From: an uncultured Bacteroidales bacterium
Lineage (GTDB): Bacteria; Bacteroidota; Bacteroidia; Bacteroidales; FEN-979
DNA: 64,000 nt
Assembly (NCBI GenBank): GCA_903885595.1
Contig: CAISJJ010000019.1
Location: 8,697 to 72,696 of the forward strand
Direction: 5' to 3'
Part shown: piece after piece, positions 598 to 64,000 of the stretch
How positions within the stretch are numbered: the first letter of the stretch is position 1
Layout of the letters: each line of letters opens with the position of its first letter
The notes under the pieces: model-generated
Database searches by the model: none
Told to the model about the DNA's origin: nothing
What the model saw: only the letters and a program-made list of their open reading frames with translations
Position numbers and translations under genes: made by a program

Positions 598-1710
598 TCA
601 ATAATTTTCAACATATTGTTTCAGCTTGTCCAGGAAATCAGGCACGAAATCATTGAACCTCTTGTACTTATTGCGGTTATTGGCATAATCCTTTATTAGA
701 TCAAGTATAAACTCATTGTATATGTATCCCTGTTGTTTTTCGCCAAGGATAACCATTTGAGCAAACTCATCATATCGATTTTTAATCAAAAAGTAAGCTG
801 TTAAACTCCTCAGGAAGGACTCGCATAAAAAAGAAACCTTTGATGGATCCGCGGTGGAATATTTAAATGGAATCAGGTCAATTTGTTCAGTGAAATTATC
901 CATGACCGGATTTAAGAAGGCATGACCAAGCTCATGTGCTGCGCCATAATAGATATAATCCTTTGCCGCCATTTTCCCTTCTCCCAGGATAGTTGTATCG
1001 CTATTCCCTAATTCGGCATCATGACCGGCAACAAATTTTGGCGATAGAAAAAAGATGCAACTTGATTTACCATTGTCTGCATACCAGTAAGCGTGAATAT
1101 CCTGTTCAAGCAATGTAATGATGAAGGTATAATTATCCTTTTTTGCTCCCCAGAATTTTTCATAATCCCTGATCATTTCAAGGCCTGAAATTTCTCCCGC
1201 AACCACGTCAATCTTCTGATGATAATATTCCCGGTGATTTTCAACGAACAGATCAAACCGGGTAACCCCTGCAAAGGTGACAACTGCATTCCTGAGACTG
1301 TCAAGTATCATTGATTTATTCATCAATGTGTTTGGCAAACCAAAACTATCGAGTTGCAGGAACTTCATATATGAAGTATCACTTTTGAAATTCCTGTCGA
1401 AAAACAACCCGTTTATCGATAAATGAGCATGATAATTCTGCAGAACTTTTTTTACGAATTGAACGGATTGGTCCTTCTTAAATGAAGCAAAATAGGTGTT
1501 TATATCAGATTTATACTTGAAATCAAGATTATTCAGGTAATTTGAATTGGCCAGGTATGCCATGATGTGGAACAACTCAAGTTCAGAATTAATCTCAACT
1601 TTAATTCCTTTTGCTTCAACTCCGAAGTTCTTGAATTCACCTGCTTTAGAATATCCGGCTGATAAAATCACTCCAAATCCAATCATCGCAAATAATACTC
1701 TGCTTTTCAT
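598..1710 (-). CDS. Secreted HExxH metallopeptidase-like protein (DUF4932-like)
   Basis: 370-aa ORF with signal peptide MKSRVLFAMIGFGVILSAGYSKA. It has a zinc-binding HELGH motif in YYGAAHELGHAFLNP. Size and layout resemble the DUF4932 family (assigned from memory, not searched). Confidence 0.8.
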   Translation of the reverse strand: MKSRVLFAMIGFGVILSAGYSKAGEFKNFGVEAKGIKVEINSELELFHIMAYLANSNYLNNLDFKYKSDINTYFASFKKDQSVQFVKKVLQNYHAHLSINGLFFDRNFKSDTSYMKFLQLDSFGLPNTLMNKSMILDSLRNAVVTFAGVTRFDLFVENHREYYHQKIDVVAGEISGLEMIRDYEKFWGAKKDNYTFIITLLEQDIHAYWYADNGKSSCIFFLSPKFVAGHDAELGNSDTTILGEGKMAAKDYIYYGAAHELGHAFLNPVMDNFTEQIDLIPFKYSTADPSKVSFLCESFLRSLTAYFLIKNRYDEFAQMVILGEKQQGYIYNEFILDLIKDYANNRNKYKRFNDFVPDFLDKLKQYVENY

Positions 1711-1737
1711 GAGTTAATAATTTGTTTTTAATGGTCA

Positions 1738-1800
1738 CATGGAATACCCATATTATCATTCACGGTTTGCATTAGCGAAGTTAGTAGGGGTATTTCATAA
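1738..1800 (-). repeat. Copy A of a conserved inverted-repeat element in the 5' region of a minus-strand gene
   Basis: The plus strand reads catggaatacccatattatcattcacggtttgcattagcgaagttagtaggggtatttcataa. It aligns with copies at 26638-26705 and 63331-63397. The arms are aatacccatat (1743-1753) and gtaggggtatt (1784-1794), with 9 of 11 positions pairable. The shared core is attcacggtttgc. It begins about 25 nt upstream of the ATG at 1710. Confidence 0.6.
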
Positions 1801-25893: not shown

Positions 25894-26613
25894 TTAAGAA
25901 TTATCCATCAGATTATGCCGTACCAACAGTGAAGAAGAGACCGCCGAAATGATAAGTTTCAATTCAGGTGTAAGGTCATTTTTGATGTAAACCCGGCCGT
26001 TACCGGCTATTGAGACTGCAGCAACTGAAATGCCATCCTGGAAAAATTCGTAACCCCAAACCTCCGCGGGAACCCATTTGGGCTGACCCTCCATTTTTGT
26101 AACCCCATGTATTGAGATTTGATTGCCGTTTTTGTCTTTTACAATGCCACAACCAGCATTCTTTTCGAGAATAAGGTCAGGATCGGATATTAAAAACTCC
26201 CAACTGTTCTCGGTACTGTTTTGAAGCATGATTGCTCCTGCAAATGAGTTTACAAACTTCCATGAATAACCCATAAATCCATCGAGAAACTCAGTTTCGT
26301 CGCTAAAAAACCTACTGACGGCAATAATAGTGCAACTCAGACTATCTGGTGTGTACTGTGTAAAACTAAGTTTTTCCCTGGCAGCCCTGAAACGTTCGAA
26401 AAAATCCATGTCAATTCCGGCAGACCAGCTTCTTTTTATTTTAGAGGTGTGAAATCCCCCAAAACTGATAACCTGATTGAACTGCCAACCCTGCTTTCCT
26501 TTTACATCCAGAATGGTTGAATTTGATCTTAATTCTTCTGAAACGATGATCCCCTGAGCTTTCGAAGCTATAGCGGAGACAAAAATCATTAAAACGACTA
26601 CCAGCTCTTTCAT
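25894..26613 (-). CDS. Secreted protein of unknown function
   Basis: 239-aa ORF with signal peptide MKELVVVLMIFVSAIASKAQG. I recognise no motifs. Confidence 0.65.
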   Translation of the reverse strand: MKELVVVLMIFVSAIASKAQGIIVSEELRSNSTILDVKGKQGWQFNQVISFGGFHTSKIKRSWSAGIDMDFFERFRAAREKLSFTQYTPDSLSCTIIAVSRFFSDETEFLDGFMGYSWKFVNSFAGAIMLQNSTENSWEFLISDPDLILEKNAGCGIVKDKNGNQISIHGVTKMEGQPKWVPAEVWGYEFFQDGISVAAVSIAGNGRVYIKNDLTPELKLIISAVSSSLLVRHNLMDNS

Positions 26614-26637
26614 ATGTTAATTTTAATTTTTTCGGGC

Positions 26638-26705
26638 CATATGGAATAGCCATAAATTATGATTCACGGTTTGCATGTACGTTGTACTTATGGCAATTTC
26701 ATGTG
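26638..26705 (-). repeat. Copy B of the conserved inverted-repeat element
   Basis: The plus strand reads catatggaatagccataaattatgattcacggtttgcatgtacgttgtacttatggcaatttcatgtg. The arms are aatagccataa (26645-26655) and ttatggcaatt (26688-26698), with 10 of 11 positions pairable. It begins about 22 nt upstream of the ATG at 26613. Confidence 0.65.
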
Positions 26706-26993
26706 ATAAAATTTATTTTATACAAAGCGGTCGCATGGAATACTCATATGTTTCGGGTTTCAATCAAGGGTATGATGTGGTAGTTTCACTCATAGCACCG
26801 CTTATTCCAGCCGAAGTTAAAGGTACAGAAAATACCGATCCATTTTCAACTTTTCATTTATTCATGTACTTTTTTCATCCTGGATTTTTTATGAGATGAG
26901 TGACAGTGATTAATCTGATGATCCAAAGTAGGATCTTAGTTATCAATTTATGGCACTATCCTGCTGGATAGCATTATCACTTTGTAAAAACCT

Positions 26994-27293
26994 ATGAATA
27001 ACCTGGCGATTATCCCAATCAGCTTAAGTAACCCGCATCACTATAACTAGGACTTTGAGTATATCCTGCAATGGGCTTCCCAACGATATCAGGAACTTAT
27101 CGTGAACATCGCAGATTCGATATACAGGCACAACTATGCTGACACAAAGACGTCGGATGAAACGGAGGCTTATAAATCGGCGAACAGGCAAGGATCAATC
27201 AGGCATTTTCATAACCAGGTAATTGATGGGTTCAGACTGGAACAGAGCAGGAAGTTCATCCTGGAGGAGAGTGCAAAAAGGAGCAATATATGA
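26994..27293 (+). pseudogene. ORF interrupted by an in-frame TAG, unknown function
   Basis: The ATG at 26994 gives MNNLAIIPISLSNPHHYN, then TAG. The same frame continues with DFEYILQWASQRYQELIVNIADSIYRHNYADTKTSDETEAYKSANRQGSIRHFHNQVIDGFRLEQSRKFILEESAKRSNI. The ORF track reports only the GTG-started tail, 27102-27293. Confidence 0.3.
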
Positions 27294-27324
27294 CCTCTTG
27301 CGCGCTAACTCAGGATAAAAACCC

Positions 27325-27332
27325 TATTTTTG
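27325..27332 (+). promoter_or_regulatory. -7 promoter box TATTTTTG
   Basis: It matches TAnnTTTG and lies about 60 nt upstream of the ATG at 27394. Confidence 0.35.
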
Positions 27333-27393
27333 CAAATCATTCGTTGAAGGATTTCTATGTTATTAATCCGGAAAAGGCGCAACCATTATTTTA

Positions 27394-27666
27394 ATGAAAG
27401 ATAACCCGAAGCCCATCAAAATTGAGATGTTTTATACGCTGACTTGTCCGAACTGCAAACCATTAAAGCGGTTACTGAATGAAGTTTTACCTGAATTCGG
27501 GGATAAGTTTGAATTTAAAACAACACTAGCCAATGGACCGCTAGGTATGATCCGGACCCTGAAGTTAGGCATTCATACAGTACCAACACTTTTAATCAAC
27601 GATGTGATCGTATTCAGGGAAGTCCCTGCCAAACAGGAGTTAATCAACAAACTTAACATGTATTGA
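27394..27666 (+). CDS. Small thioredoxin-fold protein (glutaredoxin-like, CxxC)
   Basis: 90 aa with the active-site-like motif TCPNCKP near the N-terminus. A cis-Pro region (HTVPTLLIND) is typical of short thioredoxin_3-type proteins. Confidence 0.8.
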   Translation: MKDNPKPIKIEMFYTLTCPNCKPLKRLLNEVLPEFGDKFEFKTTLANGPLGMIRTLKLGIHTVPTLLINDVIVFREVPAKQELINKLNMY

Positions 27667-27902
27667 AAATGGAACAAAAGAAAAAACTCAGATGCCCGAT
27701 GGGTGTCCCCGGTGGTATCATTGCCGTTTTAGTAGGTTTAACGGGAATTATTGTCAATAGTATATGTTTTAACTGGATGGGTTTAATAACCTCTGTTGCC
27801 TTGTTTTTGCTCGGGGGGCCATTTGTGCGTGTTACCATGATGGTTCATTCGGCAAACGACCGTTTGGATGAACTGGAGCGTAAAACCGGGGAGAAAAAAT
27901 AG
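27663..27902 (+). CDS. Small two-helix membrane protein
   Basis: 79 aa. Its ATGA start overlaps the stop of the thioredoxin-like gene. It has two hydrophobic helices and a charged tail. Confidence 0.5.
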   Translation: MKMEQKKKLRCPMGVPGGIIAVLVGLTGIIVNSICFNWMGLITSVALFLLGGPFVRVTMMVHSANDRLDELERKTGEKK

Positions 27903-27928
27903 ATTTTCTTTCCCATGTTTTTTCCCGT

Positions 27929-28528
27929 TCAGCAGCCGGCCGGGACCGGGGCAAAGCTGATGATCCGCTCATGCCGTATAAAATTAAAATCCAGGAAGTT
28001 CCCCCCGGTTGATGTAACATTTAAAATCCTAAAATCAATATTACCTGAGGATTCAGCGTTATTGCTGCTTTTTACATTGGCTGAAACAACCAGGATATAA
28101 TATCTGCCAGGCATTAAATTCAAAGTATAATTTCCTGTCGCATTTGCTGTGGTCTTGATAACCGTCGGTAATTTTTTGAATCCGCGAAGATATTTCAGGG
28201 CGAGATTTGATGCATTATCATAATTGTCCTGCGCTCGTTTAATTTTAGCTGGATCTATCACGGTATTTGCCGACAGGAAATGATCGAATTTGATGAATTG
28301 GAAATTTCCCATTACACTTGCCATGTTTTCATATTCAGTCGATCTGACATCGGCTTCATTAACAGCATATATTTCAGCTCCCGCATCGGCCTGCTTTGCT
28401 GATGCGTAAGCTTCCTGATATGTGATAACACCCGACAGTGTAGCCTTTTCGGCAGGCAGCTTTCCATTTTCTGTCGTAAACGACAGGGAGATCCCAAGGA
28501 TTAAAATACCGACAAGAATGTTTTTCAT
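27929..28528 (-). CDS. Secreted protein with carboxypeptidase-regulatory-like (CarboxypepD_reg) domain
   Basis: It has a signal peptide. The motif GNYTLNLMPGRYYILVVS is the typical G-x-Y-x-L-x-L-x-P-G-x-Y strand pair. Confidence 0.65.
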   Translation of the reverse strand: MKNILVGILILGISLSFTTENGKLPAEKATLSGVITYQEAYASAKQADAGAEIYAVNEADVRSTEYENMASVMGNFQFIKFDHFLSANTVIDPAKIKRAQDNYDNASNLALKYLRGFKKLPTVIKTTANATGNYTLNLMPGRYYILVVSANVKSSNNAESSGNIDFRILNVTSTGGNFLDFNFIRHERIISFAPVPAGC

Positions 28529-60900: not shown

Positions 60901-63282
60901 CATATTGGGCAGGGCGAGCAAATCATCAAAGTTTTTCTCCTTCAGCAATGCTTCGATGTTGAGCAATGCGGATTGAATATCTTCAGGGGTTACAGTTGCC
61001 GGATAAACAATGCCCAGCATTTTCAGTGTTTCGAAAGAGAATTTAACAGCTTCTGCCGGGTTGTTTACGGAATAGAAGGAGAGAATCCTGAGGTGGCTGA
61101 TCTTTACCTTATCCAGGACATCCCTTACATGTTGACTTGCTGATTCAATATAGGAATCCATGCCGTCCAGGTCCCCTGAAAGTATAGAAGATTCAATGAG
61201 CGAGTAGAAAACACCGAAAACCAGGGAATAGTTATCCGTCCACGAACTGGCGGGAAGCAGCTCTTTTGCAGTTCTGAAGAACATCAATGCATCGGAATAG
61301 GCAACCGATTTTTTCGCCTTGATCCCGGCCCTGAGGTTTAACCGGGCCAGCTGAAGTTTTTCTGTGGTTGTTTGAAGGAGTTCACGGGCAATATTCAGGT
61401 GGCTGACGATCTCAAAGAGGTTTTCATCCTCGGCCAGTTCATGTTTCTGTTGGAGCAGGTATTGTCCGATCCTGAAATGAACCACTTTAAGTTCCTCCAT
61501 GGGGATCAGGGAGTAGACCGCCATCTGTATCTGGTCGTGCGAAAACCGGTACACCGCCTCCTTTTCAGCGTTAAACGAAATGATGATATTTTCCCTGGTG
61601 GCCCACCTCAGAATTCGATTAACCTCGTCAGGAGGATTGATGGATAATTGCAGTAACATGCCAGAGTTGAACTGGTTCCCCATTGCAGAAGCAAGCATGA
61701 GAAGCTCCCGAGCCCCGGCAGGGAATTCATTGATTTTCCTGATCAGGAACCCGGCCAGGTTGTCGGTCAGGTTCATAGTTCCTATTTCCTTCATATTCCA
61801 GGTCCATCTGTTTGTCATGGAATCGAACGAAATGATTTTGGTATGGTAGAGGGAGGTTAAAAACTGCTTGAAATAAAACGGATTGCCTTCGGTTTTTTTC
61901 AAACATAATTTAGCCAGTGGGTTGGCTTCTTCTTCGGTGCATTTCAGGGTGTTGGCAATTATTCCAGCCATATCCCGCTTCTCCAGTGGTTTCAGAAGGA
62001 TGGATTGGATCGCCCCTGATTTTTTATCAAGTCGGTTCATGGCCTGTATCAGCGGATGATGAAGATCGACCTCGTTGTCGCGGTATGCTCCTATCATCAG
62101 GATACACTTGTTTCCCGGAGTCGTAATGATCATCTCCAGCAGGTTCAGTGTTGCCTGGTCGATCCATTGAATATCATCCAGAAATATCACCAGGGGATTC
62201 TCTTTCTGTGTAAAGACCTCAACAAATCGTTCAAGAACAAAGTGAAAACGATGCTGTGTTTCGGTGGGTCCCAGCTCCTTCACGCGGGGTTGCCTACCGA
62301 TAATCAGTTCAAGTCCGGGTAAAACGTCGACCATAACCTGCCCGTTAACCGTCAAGGCCGTTTCCAGCTTTGATCTCCATGCACCCAGGCTGGCAGGGCT
62401 TTCGGTAAGCAGCCGGGTAATCAACCCGTTGAATGCCTGGATCAGCGCTGAAAAGGGCGTATTCCGCTTGTATTGCTCGCATTTTCCAGAAACGAAATAA
62501 CCTTTTTTTTCGAGGAGTTTATCGCGAAACTGGTTCACCAGTAGGGTTTTCCCGATCCCCGGAGGACCTGTGATCAGCAGGAGTTCTGCCGGCCGGTCCA
62601 CGATCCGGTCAATGGCGTCCGACAAAAACTCCGTCTCCTTTTCTCTTCCGAAGAGTTTTTGATGGATTTCGAAACGACCTGAAAAATCATTTTCCCCGAT
62701 TAGGAAACGGAGCTGCGACGAATTTTTTGGATCAGCCAGGAATGAAAGGCATTTTTCAAGATCATGTTTTAATCCATTCGCAGACTGATACCGGTCCTCC
62801 GCATTTTTCGACAACAGTTTCATGACGATTTCCGAGACTACCTCTGGTATTGAGGAGTCAACCTTGTGCGGAGCCACGGGAGTCAGGGCAACAATGGCAT
62901 GAATGAGCTCAAAATCATCGGAACAGGTATAGGGAAGCTGCCCGGTAAGCTGCTGGTACAGGTAAATACCAAATGAATAAAGGTCAGTCCGGTAATCTAC
63001 CTGACGGTTGATCCTTCCCGTTTGTTCAGGCGATGTGTACTGGGAAAATGATTGTCCTGCCCTGGTAATTAGCAACGGGAACCCTTCGACCCCATTCTGC
63101 TGTATTGAATCGAGGTTAAGATTCCCGTGATATTCATCCCGATAATGTATCGCGGCAAGTTGTTCGCATAGGCTGCACGCCGACCTGAGGATATGGCTTA
63201 AGTCCATTGTATCTGTTTTTTTGCAACAAGGAATCCAGTATGAATGTATGAAACGTATTTCAAAGCTAAAGAAATAGAGCAT
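57991..63282 (-). CDS. Giant multidomain sensor: truncated kinase-like domain / AAA(+)-type NTPase / long helical (TPR-like) region / GAF / PAS / histidine kinase
   Basis: It has a kinase C-lobe-like region (TSPEQTGRINRQVDYRTDLYSFGIYLYQQLTGQLPY), a Walker A (ITGPPGIGKT) and a GAF-like segment. A coiled coil and PAS region follow, then an H-box (IAHDLRSPFNS). The HATPase boxes are LLSNAIKFT, DNGIGI and GTGIGL. An alternative start is the ATG at 63207 (MDLSHILRS...). Confidence 0.9.
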   Translation of the reverse strand: MLYFFSFEIRFIHSYWIPCCKKTDTMDLSHILRSACSLCEQLAAIHYRDEYHGNLNLDSIQQNGVEGFPLLITRAGQSFSQYTSPEQTGRINRQVDYRTDLYSFGIYLYQQLTGQLPYTCSDDFELIHAIVALTPVAPHKVDSSIPEVVSEIVMKLLSKNAEDRYQSANGLKHDLEKCLSFLADPKNSSQLRFLIGENDFSGRFEIHQKLFGREKETEFLSDAIDRIVDRPAELLLITGPPGIGKTLLVNQFRDKLLEKKGYFVSGKCEQYKRNTPFSALIQAFNGLITRLLTESPASLGAWRSKLETALTVNGQVMVDVLPGLELIIGRQPRVKELGPTETQHRFHFVLERFVEVFTQKENPLVIFLDDIQWIDQATLNLLEMIITTPGNKCILMIGAYRDNEVDLHHPLIQAMNRLDKKSGAIQSILLKPLEKRDMAGIIANTLKCTEEEANPLAKLCLKKTEGNPFYFKQFLTSLYHTKIISFDSMTNRWTWNMKEIGTMNLTDNLAGFLIRKINEFPAGARELLMLASAMGNQFNSGMLLQLSINPPDEVNRILRWATRENIIISFNAEKEAVYRFSHDQIQMAVYSLIPMEELKVVHFRIGQYLLQQKHELAEDENLFEIVSHLNIARELLQTTTEKLQLARLNLRAGIKAKKSVAYSDALMFFRTAKELLPASSWTDNYSLVFGVFYSLIESSILSGDLDGMDSYIESASQHVRDVLDKVKISHLRILSFYSVNNPAEAVKFSFETLKMLGIVYPATVTPEDIQSALLNIEALLKEKNFDDLLALPNMEEPEKIETLRIISSLLHGIFFVAPQYFPLLAATCVELSVKYGNAPHSIPGYAVYGLVLCAVANDYEKGFRFGILATELLKKTGYREFTAQTTVIFYNLIAHWKQHVITGIPFLKEAHQTGLESGDIPYAVDCIHGYCYYSFFAGKSLGFLCSELDSNQSKLTGLHQENSLHYILLQIYHQVFENFISKDDEQDLLFGENFNEGQVSADDLQTRGMTALFVFYTFKSFLGLIFEKYEHTLEYISKGNENLPGATSTYHIPFFKFTETIALLALIKDENDPEYSNFIKRINSNRNDFKVWAEHAPMNHGHNLWLIDAELARVKGDIAGAIGMYDHAIELAGENEFIYIEAFANERAAKFWLSLKNEKFAHLYLSEAYRCYKAWGARAKLKDLEKKYARLLVSDRFKAISFDESTIIKVSQVLSGEIRLPDLLKKLMTLAIEYAGAERGFLILERNGLLFIEAEINAKNEEVRVQVSEPIGNSGKLSQGIVHFVSRTRQRIVLGNASFDSNFKTDSYISSHDVRSLLCQPLLSQGNLIGLLYLENNLLPHAFSEERLEVLQIIVSQAVISIENALLINNLEMKVAERTTELADINEELVITNEALIRAKEIAEEGEKLFNTLLENSPIYIFVKDSDLKAVRLSPNFAEVNGIPLNESIGKSMHELFPPAFANQIIDEDMRVLTGGKPMEFEESLGDRIYTTIKFPIHLEGKRPYLAGFTIDITERKQAEMRILEQNKELHEINATKDKFFSIIAHDLRSPFNSLLGFSELLLENLNEFDKDIIEKQVSIIHRISSQTFKLLEDILMWANLQTGKLPFVPEKILFYETCNEIIGNLIESANSKQITITCSEKSGHLILTADVNMYKTVIRNLLSNAIKFTNPGGKIQIFSQIDQEMAVITVSDNGIGINEEDIPKLWDITTSYSRPGTSNEKGTGIGLTLCKEFVEKHGGRIWVESVPGKGSDFRFSLPLSIQ

Positions 63283-63330
63283 ATAAATCCATAAATTTCA
63301 CCTGTTAATATTTATTTTTCAAAAAACGGC

Positions 63331-63397
63331 CATTTGCAATACCCATAAATTAACATTCACGATTTGCCTGAACGTTGTGTTATGGGTATTTCATGTG
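63331..63397 (-). repeat. Copy C of the conserved inverted-repeat element (best-paired copy)
   Basis: The plus strand reads catttgcaatacccataaattaacattcacgatttgcctgaacgttgtgttatgggtatttcatgtg. It has a perfect 11-bp inverted repeat, aatacccataa (63338-63348) and ttatgggtatt (63380-63390), around a 31-nt spacer. It lies 49 nt upstream of the ATG at 63282. Confidence 0.7.
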
Positions 63398-63851: not shown

Positions 63852-64000
63852 ATGAATGCTTATAAATGTCAAAAATGTGGCACATTAACAGGTGGGAATG
63901 AAAAGTTTTGCAATTTGTGCGGGCACCCACTGAATGGGGAATCCCTAACTTGCGGCGAAACATGGCGGTTTTTATCTGATTACAGGCTTTTTCCTGGTTT
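63852..64000 (+). CDS. Zinc-ribbon protein, N-terminal part (runs off the right edge)
   Basis: The ATG at 63852 is preceded by GGAGGT (63843-63848). Translation gives MNAYKCQKCGTLTGGNEKFCNLCGHPLNGESLTCGETWRFLSDYRLFPG..., with a CxxC-x12-CxxC zinc ribbon. Confidence 0.5.
   Translation, partial: MNAYKCQKCGTLTGGNEKFCNLCGHPLNGESLTCGETWRFLSDYRLFPG

What the first reader, a model, noticed from the sequence alone, without database searches (positions are those of the whole stretch)
26634..26722. Conserved ~65-90-nt element with an inverted repeat and one compensatory base-pair change, upstream of three unrelated genes (copy B)
Seen: three stretches align over about 65-90 nt. They are 1738-1800, 26638-26705 and 63331-63397, with similarity extending a little on both sides.
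- All have an 11-nt arm (aataCccataa in copies A and C, aataGccataa in copy B).
- All have a ~31-nt spacer with a conserved core attcacg(g/a)tttgc.
- The complementary arm is ttatgGgtatt in copy C and ttatgGcaatt in copy B.
- Relative to copy C, copy B changes arm position 5 from C to G and the pairing position from G to C. This is a compensatory double substitution that keeps the pair. Copy B also has one new mismatch.
- A further outer pairing (catg.gaat / atttcatg) and a T-rich run follow.
- All three lie 22-50 nt upstream of the ATG of a minus-strand gene, in the same orientation.

Inference: this is either a structured 5' leader or small RNA, a binding site for a dimeric regulator, or a small REP/MITE-like repeat with a preference for 5' intergenic DNA. 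The three downstream genes (HExxH protein, unknown secreted protein, giant sensor kinase) share no obvious function.
Basis: seen in the sequence. Interest (0 to 1): 0.62.

Follow-up and report, generated by a model that had tools for sequence, protein, structure and literature searches.

The report
Start-codon-inserting 89-bp mobile repeat
The three look-alike stretches are copies of an 89-base mobile repeat, abundant in freshwater Bacteroidota, that inserts exactly at ATGAAA start codons and brings a replacement start codon with it, so the gene it lands on stays intact.

Summary
Each copy is a unit of about 89 nt read on the minus strand:
- ATGAAAT plus a left arm;
- a 31-nt loop with the core GCAAACCGTGAAT;
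- a right arm;
- an A-rich tail;
- CAYATGAAA, whose ATG is the downstream gene's start codon.

It is not a gene-specific leader or an operator. It is a dispersed repeat, with 76 copies in 59 contigs of Bacteroidales, Prolixibacteraceae and Draconibacterium genomes assembled from metagenomes (MAGs). It breaks assemblies and reaches 50-350 times flank depth in lake metagenomes.

Two independent filled/empty comparisons show a clean insertion at the native start codon with ATGAAA duplicated. In one, orthologues up to 95% identical lack the element. The native promoter stays upstream, so the element probably becomes part of the mRNA leader.

Two base pairs covary, supporting a long hairpin and a stem over the new AUG.

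The closest known kinds are Neisseria REP2, Borrelia IR and mycobacterial MIRUs. There is no Rfam match, no terminal inverted repeats and no coupling ORF. I call it a new variant of a known kind. The mobilising enzyme is unknown.

The parts
26608..26702 (-). Copy B, the full unit. It runs from the 5' ATGAAAT (26702) through the left arm, loop, right arm and A-rich tail to the 3' ATGAAA (26613-26608).
   Evidence: nhmmer E = 2e-25. Loose ends of metagenome contigs pile up at 26608 and at 26702-26704, and depth there is 50-350 times the flanks.
26688..26702 (-). Left arm of copy B, which is also a vestigial start codon plus a 4-codon decoy ORF (ATG AAA TTG CCA TAA).
   Evidence: Read from the sequence. 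In 51 of 53 copies with a 5' ATG, the ORF from it stops before the real start.
26656..26687 (-). Loop of hairpin 1 in copy B, with the invariant core GCAAACCGTGAAT and a short inner stem.
   Evidence: The inner stem is 93% paired across copies but shows no double changes.
26638..26655 (-). Right arm of copy B (TTATGGCTATTCCATATG). It pairs with the left arm. Its last six bases, CATATG, are complementary to the CATATG that contains the start codon.
   Evidence: Covarying pairs at alignment columns 15-61 and 70-101.
26614..26637 (-). A-rich tail of copy B (type 1, GCCCGAAAAAATTAAAATTAACAT). It forms the leader directly in front of the start codon.
   Evidence: Alignment A2. Two tail subtypes occur across copies.
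26608..26613 (-). ATGAAA: the 3' end of the repeat and the first two codons of the 239-aa gene 25894-26613.
   Evidence: The repeat boundary at 26608 is seen.
26697..26748 (-). Degenerate 3' half-unit (right arm plus tail) directly upstream of copy B. It is the remnant of an older tandem copy.
   Evidence: nhmmer match to model positions 53-100, E = 4e-4. Sequence read.
1705..1798 (-). Copy A, with a type-2 tail. Its 3' ATGAAA (1710-1705) starts the DUF4932 gene 598-1710.
   Evidence: nhmmer E = 1e-21. An ORF of 370 aa runs from the element's ATG. Pfam match.
63296..63395 (-). Copy C. Its 3' hexamer has decayed to GTGAAA, and the 1763-aa kinase ORF starts at 63282 in another frame.
   Evidence: nhmmer E = 9e-21. 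The ORF from the GTG closes after 11 codons. Pfam match.
25894..26613 (-). Gene B, a 239-aa secreted protein of unknown function whose start codon the element supplies.
   Evidence: Homologues at 57-62% identity have no element upstream.

Best explanation
This is a non-autonomous mobile DNA repeat of about 89 bp, specific to a group of freshwater Bacteroidota.

**Shown**
- It integrates at ATGAAW start codons, with a preference for A-Y just before the ATG. After integration the hexamer stands at both ends.
- The left ATGAAA sits where the gene's original start codon was, behind the native promoter and leader. It now opens a 4-codon dead-end ORF (MKYP* or MKLP*) inside the left arm.
- The right ATGAAA, preceded by the element's own A-rich tail, becomes the working start codon. 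The protein is unchanged. An upstream gene whose stop overlapped the start (ATGA) also keeps its stop.

**Inferred**
- The element is transcribed from the native promoter as part of the leader or of the spacer between genes in an operon.
- Junction anatomy fits recombination between an ATGAAA core in the element and the same core in the target. At the left junction the bases before ATGAAA come from the target. At the right junction they are the element's own CAY.
- The right arm (TTATGGGTATTCCATRTG) is complementary to CAY-ATGAAAT-ACCCATAA. That is exactly the sequence made when the element's 3' end is joined to its 5' end. So an 18-bp hairpin with one conserved A.C mismatch is the likely structure recognised by the unknown enzyme on single-stranded DNA.
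- In mRNA the same complementarity lets the right arm pair with either the decoy AUG or the real AUG.
For: **Dispersed, high copy**
- There are 76 copies in 59 contigs of about 10 MAGs plus the window.
- At least 10 copies lie at true contig ends.
- Contig depth over the element is 50-350 times that of its flanks in lake metagenomes.

**Association with gene starts**
- In 37 of 56 assessable terminal copies the element's ATG opens an ORF of at least 80 aa (or one that runs off the contig). One more copy, set aside as truncated, has a 380-aa ORF. In 14 more, a same-strand ORF starts within 400 nt.
- By comparison, 12% of other ATGAAA hexamers are the first ATG of such an ORF. Gene starts make up 34% of ATGAAW sites that lie outside ORFs of 100 aa or more.

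**Filled versus empty sites**
- L005 carries the element. Five syntenic orthologues at 95, 90, 85, 81 and 81% protein identity (L065-L069) lack it.
- All six share the -7 box TATCTTTG, 16-18 nt before the native ATG.
- In L005 the coding sequence resumes as ATGAAA|ATTACATTTCTGGG, as in L065 and L069.
- A second pair, L006 (filled) and L014 (empty), has colinear protein N-termini.

**The 5' flank behaves like a native upstream region**
- TAnnTTTG occurs in 22% of 5' flanks, 21% of control gene starts and 4.6% of random 100-mers. It occurs in 1 of 76 elements.
- In five cases the upstream gene's stop overlaps or abuts the left ATG.

**Independent insertions and structure**
- In 7 of 8 tandem pairs the neighbours are less alike (76-90%) than each is to a copy elsewhere (89-99%).
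- Covariation: pair 15-61 is CG 30, GC 13, UA 10, AU 3. Pair 70-101 is AU 25, GC 22, GU 4. The target-derived 5' base shows no association with column 70.
- Well-kept copies fold with z = -3.4 to -5.6.

**Transcription**
- Metatranscriptome contigs join the element to both flanks.
Against: - No transposase or recombinase has been identified, and no autonomous parent element was found.
- No circular or excised form has been seen.
- All data come from MAGs and short-read contigs, which break at the repeat. Copy number per genome is therefore indirect, and no filled/empty polymorphism within one population could be recovered.
- The evidence for transcription rests on a few metatranscriptome contigs that could be DNA carry-over.
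- Covariation rests on only two variable pairs. Relatedness between subfamilies inflates such counts.
- Gene starts are hit about twice as often as a pure 'any tolerated ATGAAW' model predicts. Either targeting reads more than the hexamer or selection also acts.
- The window's own copies A and B are degenerate (fold z = -1.9 and -0.17).
Confidence: 0.8

Rival explanations
1. It is a cis-regulatory RNA leader, a translational switch kept by selection in front of a regulon. The right arm alternates between pairing with the decoy AUG and the real AUG, so that translation of the 4-codon ORF or a trans-acting factor sets expression.
For: - Two covarying pairs.
- Predicted folds show either the start-sequestering stem or the extended hairpin, depending on the copy.
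- Position -3 is an invariant C rather than the favoured A (PMC6847099). This looks like a constraint from pairing.
- The element lies downstream of native promoters.
Against: - Copies are 96-99% identical within a MAG yet differ between MAGs, which points to amplification rather than site-by-site selection.
- The downstream genes are functionally unrelated.
- The element is absent from orthologues at 95% identity.
- Tandem arrays are built from different subfamilies.
- Rfam gives only noise.
- A regulatory side effect remains possible, but it does not explain the distribution.
Confidence: 0.1
2. It is a mobile promoter or operator cassette like Neisseria REP2/CREN. The repeat would bring its own promoter and a binding site for a dimeric regulator, and so rewire transcription of the genes it lands on.
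For: - It always lies immediately upstream of, and co-oriented with, genes.
- A near-match to the Bacteroidetes -7 box (TAATTATG, one mismatch) occurs in 45 of 76 copies.
- Some divergent neighbours start only 23-39 nt from the element, which leaves little room for another promoter.
- REP2 is a precedent (PMC3184786).
Against: - A canonical TAnnTTTG occurs in only 1 of 76 elements.
- The native -7 box is retained upstream in the filled site.
- The 5' flanks carry -7 boxes at the normal gene-start frequency.
- Several copies sit in operon junctions where the upstream stop overlaps the left ATG.
- The 31-nt gap between the arms is long for a dimer operator.
Confidence: 0.08
3. The spread needs no dedicated enzyme. 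Replication template switching or gene conversion between the 6-8-nt microhomologies (AYATGAAA) and the similar A-rich leaders of native genes copies the unit to new gene starts and builds tandem arrays.
For: - The hexamer is identical at both ends, and there are no terminal inverted repeats.
- The native leader in the empty site L065 (AAATATTTAACAT|ATGAAA) closely resembles the element's tail.
- The hairpin could stall replication forks.
Against: - Tens of near-identical copies per genome, and tandems made of different subfamilies, imply an efficient and repeated process.
- A 6-nt microhomology is very short for two coordinated switches.
- Covariation that preserves a hairpin with a fixed A.C mismatch suggests recognition of a structure.
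Confidence: 0.1

Closest known systems
Neisseria REP2 (CREN) repeats and Borrelia plasmid IR sequences (Parkhill 2000; Morelle 2003; Dunn 1994; reviewed in PMC3184786)
   Same: - They are dispersed intergenic repeats without terminal inverted repeats.
- They have two internal stem-loops.
- They lie immediately upstream of unrelated ORFs.
- The repeat carries leader sequence and the ATG that starts the ORF.
- Their mechanism of spread is unknown.
   Different: - REP2 is 120-150 bp, has about 26 copies, and is reported to contain a promoter and a Shine-Dalgarno site.
- This element is about 89 bp and lacks a canonical Bacteroidetes -7 box. It sits downstream of the native promoter and has an A-rich leader without a Shine-Dalgarno site.
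- It shows an explicit ATGAAA duplication, proven by empty sites.
- No sequence relationship was tested or is expected, since the phyla differ.
Mycobacterial interspersed repetitive units, MIRUs (Supply 1997; PMC12548453, PMC3184786)
   Same: - The units are 40-100 bp and occur singly or in tandem at about 40-50 loci.
- They insert at start codons, often inside operons.
- They are oriented with the genes and arranged so that the downstream gene is still expressed.
   Different: - MIRUs carry an ORF through the unit that is coupled to the gene by a -4 overlap. Here only 13 of 54 copies have an internal ORF from the ATGATAA site ending at the ATGA overlap, and the decoy ORF stops after 4 codons.
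- MIRUs are GC-rich and actinobacterial.
- Here most tandems are made of different subfamilies rather than VNTR-type duplications.
Putative mobile promoters, PMPs (Matus-Garcia, Nijveen and van Passel 2012; PMC3575422)
   Same: Both are highly similar non-coding sequence upstream of non-homologous genes within a genome, also shared between related taxa.
   Different: - PMP is an operational class defined on positions -150 to -50. It has no stated mechanism or boundaries.
- Here the boundaries, target and duplication are defined, and a promoter function is not supported.
Classical bacterial MITEs such as Correia elements (Neisseria) and BrickBuilt (Porphyromonas gingivalis, PMC4596501)
   Same: All are small, non-coding and high in copy number. 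They contain inverted repeats, are flanked by a short duplication, are often co-transcribed with neighbouring genes, and break assemblies.
   Different: - MITEs have terminal inverted repeats matching a parent IS, and duplications defined by length rather than by sequence (TA for Correia).
- Here the inverted repeat is internal, with a 24-27-nt tail beyond it.
- The duplicated hexamer is always ATGAAW.
IS200/IS605-derived palindrome-associated elements, REP/RAYT elements and integron attC sites (structure-recognised, single-strand recombination; from general knowledge)
   Same: All rely on imperfect hairpins with conserved mismatches and compensatory changes. They are strictly sequence-specific for a short target, lack terminal inverted repeats, and can build tandem arrays.
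   Different: - No GTAG (REP) or GTTRRRY (attC) motif is present, and the copies are not in cassette arrays.
- IS200/IS605 elements do not duplicate their target, although a right end that repeats the target sequence would look the same.
- No TnpA, RAYT or IntI gene has been linked to the element.

Membership tests
Any Rfam family | A covariance-model score at or above the family's gathering threshold | tested here: not met
   There were 0 hits in the whole window at gathering thresholds. In the E-value mode only noise appeared: RAGATH-27 at 16.9 bits against 76.1 needed, and mir-989 at 16.2 against 59.
Classical MITE | Terminal inverted repeats at the two extremities of the inserted segment | tested here: not met
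   The empty sites define the insert. The 15-18-nt inverted repeat lies at unit positions 1-16 and about 47-65, followed by a conserved 24-27-nt tail. By eye, the ends of the inserted segment show no terminal inverted repeat under any of the registers I tried.
Classical MITE | Short target-site duplication flanking each copy | tested here: met
   ATGAAA (5-6 bp) is present once in the empty sites and twice in the filled sites. Atypically, the duplicated sequence is the same in all copies.
Classical MITE | A parent IS with the same ends encoding the transposase | not tested
   Only 8-kb blocks around copies were available, so no systematic search of whole MAGs was possible.
REP/REPIN with RAYT | A 20-40-nt GC-rich palindrome with a conserved GTAG, mostly at 3' ends of genes or between convergent genes, plus a RAYT gene in the genome | tested here: not met
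   The element is AT-rich, about 89 nt long and has no GTAG. It sits at 5' ends and is co-oriented with the downstream gene in about 51 of 56 copies. Presence of a RAYT gene was not tested.
MIRU-type start-codon repeats | Dispersed 40-100-bp units, single or tandem, inserted at start codons and oriented with the gene | tested here: met
MIRU-type start-codon repeats | An ORF running through the unit whose stop overlaps the gene's start (-4 coupling) | tested here: not met
   Only 13 of 54 copies have an ORF from the internal ATGATAA that ends at the ATGA overlap. The outcome depends on the length of the A-run. The 5' ORF stops early in 51 of 53 copies.
REP2 / Borrelia IR class | No terminal inverted repeats, two internal stem-loops, and a repeat ending in the ATG that starts the downstream ORF | tested here: met
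REP2 / Borrelia IR class | The repeat itself contains the promoter | tested here: inconclusive
   A canonical TAnnTTTG occurs in 1 of 76 copies and a one-mismatch version in 45 of 76. The native promoter is retained upstream. No transcription start data are available.
Invertible promoter (inverton) | The segment between the inverted repeats is found in both orientations | tested here: not met
   In all 66 pattern matches and all full-length profile hits the loop has the same orientation relative to the tail and the gene. A 31-bp spacer is also very short for inversion (from general knowledge).
Integron attC | R''/L''-L'/R' boxes with a GTTRRRY core, in co-oriented cassette arrays next to intI | tested here: not met
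   The consensus has no GTTRRRY core. Copies are dispersed over many contigs, upstream of resident syntenic genes.
IS200/IS605-type single-strand transposition (PATE) | Hairpin ends, insertion next to a fixed 4-5-nt target, and a Y1 TnpA acting in trans | tested here: inconclusive
   A fixed target and a hairpin with a conserved mismatch are present. There is only one long hairpin rather than two subterminal ones, and no TnpA was sought.

The most novel reading that the evidence does not exclude
The element would define a so far undescribed way of moving DNA in Bacteroidota.

- A tiny hairpin element would be excised or copied into a form whose 3' and 5' ends are joined. Only in that form does CAY-ATGAAAT-ACCCATAA lie opposite the right arm as an 18-bp stem with a fixed A.C mismatch. 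This would explain why the base before the 3' ATG covaries with the right arm while the target-derived base before the 5' ATG does not.
- A structure-specific recombinase would then integrate it into the commonest start-codon context of its host (AY-ATGAAW).
- Because it brings a decoy ORF, a leader and a new AUG that can be masked by the same arm, it could also act as a portable translational switch.
- It could also serve as a model for how the long-unexplained REP2 and MIRU type repeats spread.
Probability: 0.25. Interest if true: 0.8.

Novelty: new variant of a known kind. Interest (0 to 1): 0.6.

Why it matters
Repeats that carry a start codon and sit exactly at gene starts (Neisseria REP2, Borrelia IR, mycobacterial MIRUs) have been known for decades, yet nobody knows how they get there.

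This family gives an unusually clean case:
- exact insert boundaries, taken from filled and empty orthologous sites;
- a fixed 6-bp target that is also the commonest start context of the host (16 of 51 long ORFs in the window begin ATGAAA);
- tandems built by repeated insertion;
- covariation pointing to a specific hairpin as the recognised structure.

That makes the enzyme and the intermediate directly searchable.

There are practical consequences too:
- The repeat fragments short-read assemblies of abundant lake Bacteroidota.
- It will mislead start-codon annotation, because of the decoy ATGAAA 89 nt upstream.
- It places a structured leader in front of dozens of genes in a phylum that starts translation without Shine-Dalgarno sites. 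This is a natural experiment on how leader structure tunes expression.

Tried and rejected
- **Rfam.** Searches at gathering thresholds and in the permissive E-value mode gave nothing above noise.
- **Viral contigs.** The pattern was not found.
- **Empty alleles in metagenome runs.** Four attempts with read laying failed because Logan contigs break at the repeat. Only a 161-nt deletion variant turned up.
- **Homologues of window gene B.** At 57-62% identity they lack the element, but they sit in other genomic contexts and are too distant to define junctions.
- **Orthologue of window gene A in L014.** It lacks the element but has different synteny and a different signal peptide.
- **MIRU-like translational coupling ORF.** Rejected.
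- **Canonical Bacteroidetes promoter inside the element.** Rejected.
- **Inverton.** Rejected, since the orientation is constant.
- **Intrinsic terminator.** Rejected by reading the sequence: no T-run follows the hairpin on either strand.
- **Local slippage as the source of tandem arrays.** Rejected for 7 of 8 pairs.
- **Pure 'any tolerated ATGAAW site' neutral model.** It under-predicts the share of copies at gene starts, 34% against 66% (37 of 56).
- **tRNA at the high-depth window end.** None found.
- **Steps not run.** I did not build a covariance model, because the nhmmer profile already recovered all copies in the sequence held. I did not run R-scape, because it is not available.
Full report
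**1. The observation**

The three stretches are present as described. Read on the minus strand they align over about 95-100 nt, at 75% mean column identity.
- The 13-nt core GCAAACCGTGAAT occurs at 0 or 1 mismatch only at these three places. None of 100 shuffles reached the 8 matches found at up to 2 mismatches.
- A profile made from related copies hits the window only at 1705-1799, 26608-26704 and 63296-63396, with E = 1e-21 to 2e-25. It also finds a partial unit at 26697-26748.
- The similarity does not stop 22-50 nt before the genes. It continues through an A-rich tail into the ATGAAA that starts genes A (598-1710, DUF4932) and B (25894-26613). In copy C the hexamer has decayed to GTGAAA.

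**2. Anatomy**

The unit repeats with a period of 88-89 nt. In order it contains:
- ATGAAAT(A/T)(C/G)CCATAA, the left arm;
- about 31 nt of loop, holding GTTCATGCAAACCGTGAATGATAA;
- TTATGG(G/C)TATTCCAT(G/A)TG, the right arm;
- an A-rich tail of two types, CCCGAAAAAAATAAATATTATCAC or CCATTAAAATAGAAATTATTAACAC;
- ATGAAA.

The left end reads ATG AAA TAC CCA TAA, a 4-codon ORF. In 51 of 53 copies that have a 5' ATG, the ORF from it stops before the real start.

**3. It is a dispersed repeat family**

One pattern scan of species-representative genomes gave 59 contigs from about ten MAGs labelled Bacteroidales, Prolixibacteraceae, Draconibacterium or Bacteroidota.
- More than 30 of the contigs come from one MAG.
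- At least ten copies lie at true contig ends.
- Several copies are in tandem at a spacing of 88-91 nt.
- The profile finds 76 copies in all.

The window comes from a lake-water metagenome organism.
- In DNA runs the contig depth over 26616-26703 is about 900 against 10 (X1), 500 against 5 (X2) and 8000 against 36 (X7).
- Loose contig ends pile up exactly at 26608 and at 26702-26704. The same pattern appears at copy A and at a locus of another MAG.
- Within a MAG, copies are 96-99% identical to their best match elsewhere. MAGs differ in arm sequence and in TAATTATGG versus TAATTTATGG.
- There is no match in viral contigs and none in Rfam.

**4. Position relative to genes**

Of 56 assessable terminal copies:
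- 37 have the element's 3' ATG as the first codon of an ORF of at least 80 aa, or of one that runs off the contig;
- 14 more have a same-strand ORF starting within 400 nt;
- 2 face an opposite-strand ORF;
- 3 have none.

One further copy, L011, was set aside as truncated in that count but has a 380-aa ORF from its ATG.

Only 12% of other ATGAAA hexamers are the first ATG of such an ORF. In the window, 16 of 51 long ORFs start with ATGAAA. The downstream proteins are unrelated: lipoproteins, response regulators, a metallo-hydrolase, a nucleotidyltransferase and kinases.

**5. Filled and empty sites**

*(a) The metallo-hydrolase gene behind the element in L005.* It has syntenic orthologues (DHDPS and DUF6913 on one side, SBP_bac_5 on the other) at 95, 90, 85, 81 and 81% protein identity (L065-L069).
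- None of the orthologues has the element (nhmmer at E up to 1).
- All six loci share the Bacteroidetes-type -7 box TATCTTTG.
- In the empty sites the box lies 16-18 nt before ATGAAA|ATTACATTTCTGG. One orthologue has ATGCAA instead.
- In L005 the box lies 16 nt before the element's left ATGAAA. After the right ATGAAA the coding sequence continues ATTACATTTCTGG.
- The insert is therefore 89 bp with ATGAAA duplicated, and the native promoter stays upstream.

*(b) L006 (filled) and L014 (empty).* They share the upstream dehydrogenase-like gene and a downstream protein that is 81% identical.
- The left ATG lies 33 nt after the upstream stop in L006. The native ATG lies 36 nt after it in L014.
- The N-termini are colinear: MKTNMKKLIRFGE against METKKKKVIKFGE.

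More distant homologues of window gene B also lack the element.

**6. The 5' flank behaves like a native gene-upstream region**
- A perfect TAnnTTTG occurs within 100 nt in 12 of 54 flanks (22%). The figure is 20.7% for 425 control gene starts and 4.6% for random 100-mers. Only 1 of 76 elements contains one.
- The upstream neighbour is co-directional in 31 cases and divergent in 20.
- In five co-directional cases the upstream ORF's stop overlaps or abuts the left ATG: ATGA in L052 and L056, TAATG in L016, and TAA plus 1 nt in L013 and L053. This is the signature of an operon junction. The insertion preserves both genes there as well.
- The two bases before the left ATG are enriched for A-Y (0.62 A; 0.49 C and 0.38 T), against 0.40 A and 0.20 C, 0.42 T at control starts. 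The target preference therefore extends a little beyond the hexamer.

**7. Tandem arrays**

In 7 of 8 adjacent pairs the two units are 76-90% identical to each other, yet 89-99% identical to copies elsewhere. Most tandems therefore arise by a further insertion into the ATGAAA of a resident copy, not by slippage. The half-unit upstream of window copy B is a decayed example.

**8. Structure**

On 59 copies, 87% of cells in the proposed pairs are standard pairs. With partners slid by 1-3 columns the figure is 23-43%. Two pairs vary, and both covary.
- Arm pair 15-61: CG 30, GC 13, UA 10, AU 3.
- Pair 70-101, the R of CATRTG at the end of the right arm against the Y just before the 3' ATG: AU 25, GC 22, GU 4.
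- The equivalent base before the 5' ATG shows no association with column 70 (CA 16, TG 12, TA 10, CG 12).
- Position 10-66 is an A.C mismatch in 58 of 58 copies.
- Well-kept copies fold as hairpin 1 plus a 7-bp stem that includes the real AUG, or as an extended hairpin 1 that includes the decoy AUG. Their z-scores are -3.4 to -5.6.
- Window copies are weaker: C -3.0, A -1.9, B -0.17.

Such pairing would be selected equally in RNA and in single-stranded DNA.

**9. Transcription**

Contigs from three metatranscriptome runs contain the element joined to sequence on both sides, and one contains a tandem junction. This fits read-through from upstream promoters. The evidence is weak, because coverage is low and DNA carry-over is possible.

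**10. Mechanism**

*Shown:*
- integration at AY-ATGAAW start codons, with the hexamer at both ends;
- target-derived bases to the left of the left core;
- the element's own CAY to the left of the right core;
- no terminal inverted repeats.

*Inferred:*
- This is the outcome expected from recombination between an ATGAAA core in the element and the same core in the target.
- When the element's ends are joined, CAY-ATGAAAT-ACCCATAA faces the right arm as an 18-bp hairpin with the fixed A.C mismatch. This explains the 70-101 covariation and the absence of covariation with the 5' flank.
- A structure-specific enzyme acting on single strands, as for IS200/IS605, RAYT or integron integrases, is the most economical guess. 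None has been identified.

*Consequences for the host gene:*
- The old AUG opens a dead-end 4-codon ORF.
- The new AUG follows an A-rich loop, but it has C at -3 (0.99) and can be masked by the right arm. In Flavobacterium, A at -3 and low secondary structure favour initiation (PMC6847099).
- The element may therefore lower or modulate translation rather than being strictly neutral.
- Gene starts are hit about twice as often as expected if every ATGAAW outside ORFs of 100 aa or more were equally tolerated: 66% (37 of 56) against 34%. Either a wider target context is read or selection contributes.

**11. Comparison with known systems**

The closest kinds are:
- Neisseria REP2 and Borrelia IR repeats. 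They have no terminal inverted repeats, have two internal stem-loops, and carry leader and ATG fused to ORFs (PMC3184786).
- MIRUs, which 'insert themselves at start codons' (PMC12548453, citing Supply 1997).

The differences are the absence of a canonical promoter inside the element, the absence of a coupling ORF, the A-rich leader without a Shine-Dalgarno site, a different phylum, and the explicit sequence-specific duplication. The element also fits the operational class of putative mobile promoters (PMC3575422), without evidence of promoter function. It fails the defining tests for classical MITE, REP/REPIN, attC and inverton (see the membership table). Literature searches found no description of this family.

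**12. Verdict**

The finding is real and is well explained as a new family of start-codon-inserting repeats. It is a new variant of a known but mechanistically unexplained kind. Confidence in the mobile-insertion reading is about 0.8. The recombination model and any regulatory role remain hypotheses.

Noticed in passing
window 26648-26808: A related strain in run X7, about 95% identical over gene B, carries a 161-nt deletion. It removes the left arm, the loop and the upstream half-unit, and keeps part of the right arm, the tail and the ATG. The joint lies at a 4-nt AGCC microhomology.
   Followed up: partly
window 63916-64000: Contig depth is 10-100 times that of the surroundings in several runs, including an 8.4-kb contig at depth 599 in X2. 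The stretch lies inside the start of a small zinc-ribbon-like ORF (MNAYKCQKCGTL...) that runs off the window. There is no tRNA. It is probably a gene shared with a much more abundant organism.
   Followed up: partly
window 63280-63301: In copy C the element's terminal hexamer is GTGAAA, and the frame from it closes after 11 codons. The 1763-aa kinase ORF (partial Pkinase, AAA_16, GAF, PAS and HisKA/HATPase_c domains) starts at 63282 in another frame. The cause may be a frameshift, start-codon reassignment or decay of the element's end.
   Followed up: no
window 26614-27929: About 1.3 kb upstream of copy B has no ORF of 110 aa or more. It holds only small ORFs of 55-90 aa on both strands, so it may contain small genes or gene remnants.
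   Followed up: no
L014 6400-6900 (minus strand): The 80%-identical orthologue of window gene A (DUF4932) has no element. It starts in an ATGA overlap with an upstream amidohydrolase-like gene. Its synteny and signal peptide differ from those in the window.
   Followed up: partly
alignment A2 columns 14-62; for example window 26689/26650: The TTGCC/GGCTA arm subfamily, which includes window copy B and the ELA494 MAG, keeps a fixed T.T mismatch next to the covarying pair in 16 of 59 copies. A persistent mismatch of this kind may matter for recognition.
   Followed up: no
alignment A2 columns 73-98 (the tail): Two tail subtypes occur, CCCGAAAAAAATAAATATTATCAC and CCATTAAAATAGAAATTATTAACAC. They coexist within one MAG and combine freely with the arm subtypes, which suggests recombination between subfamilies.
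   Followed up: no
L065, 15 nt before the start codon at 1501: The native leader of the empty site (AAATATTTAACAT|ATGAAA) is almost identical to the last 12 nt of the element's tail (AAATATTAACAT|ATGAAA). Either the target preference extends into the leader, or the tail derives from a typical host leader.
   Followed up: no
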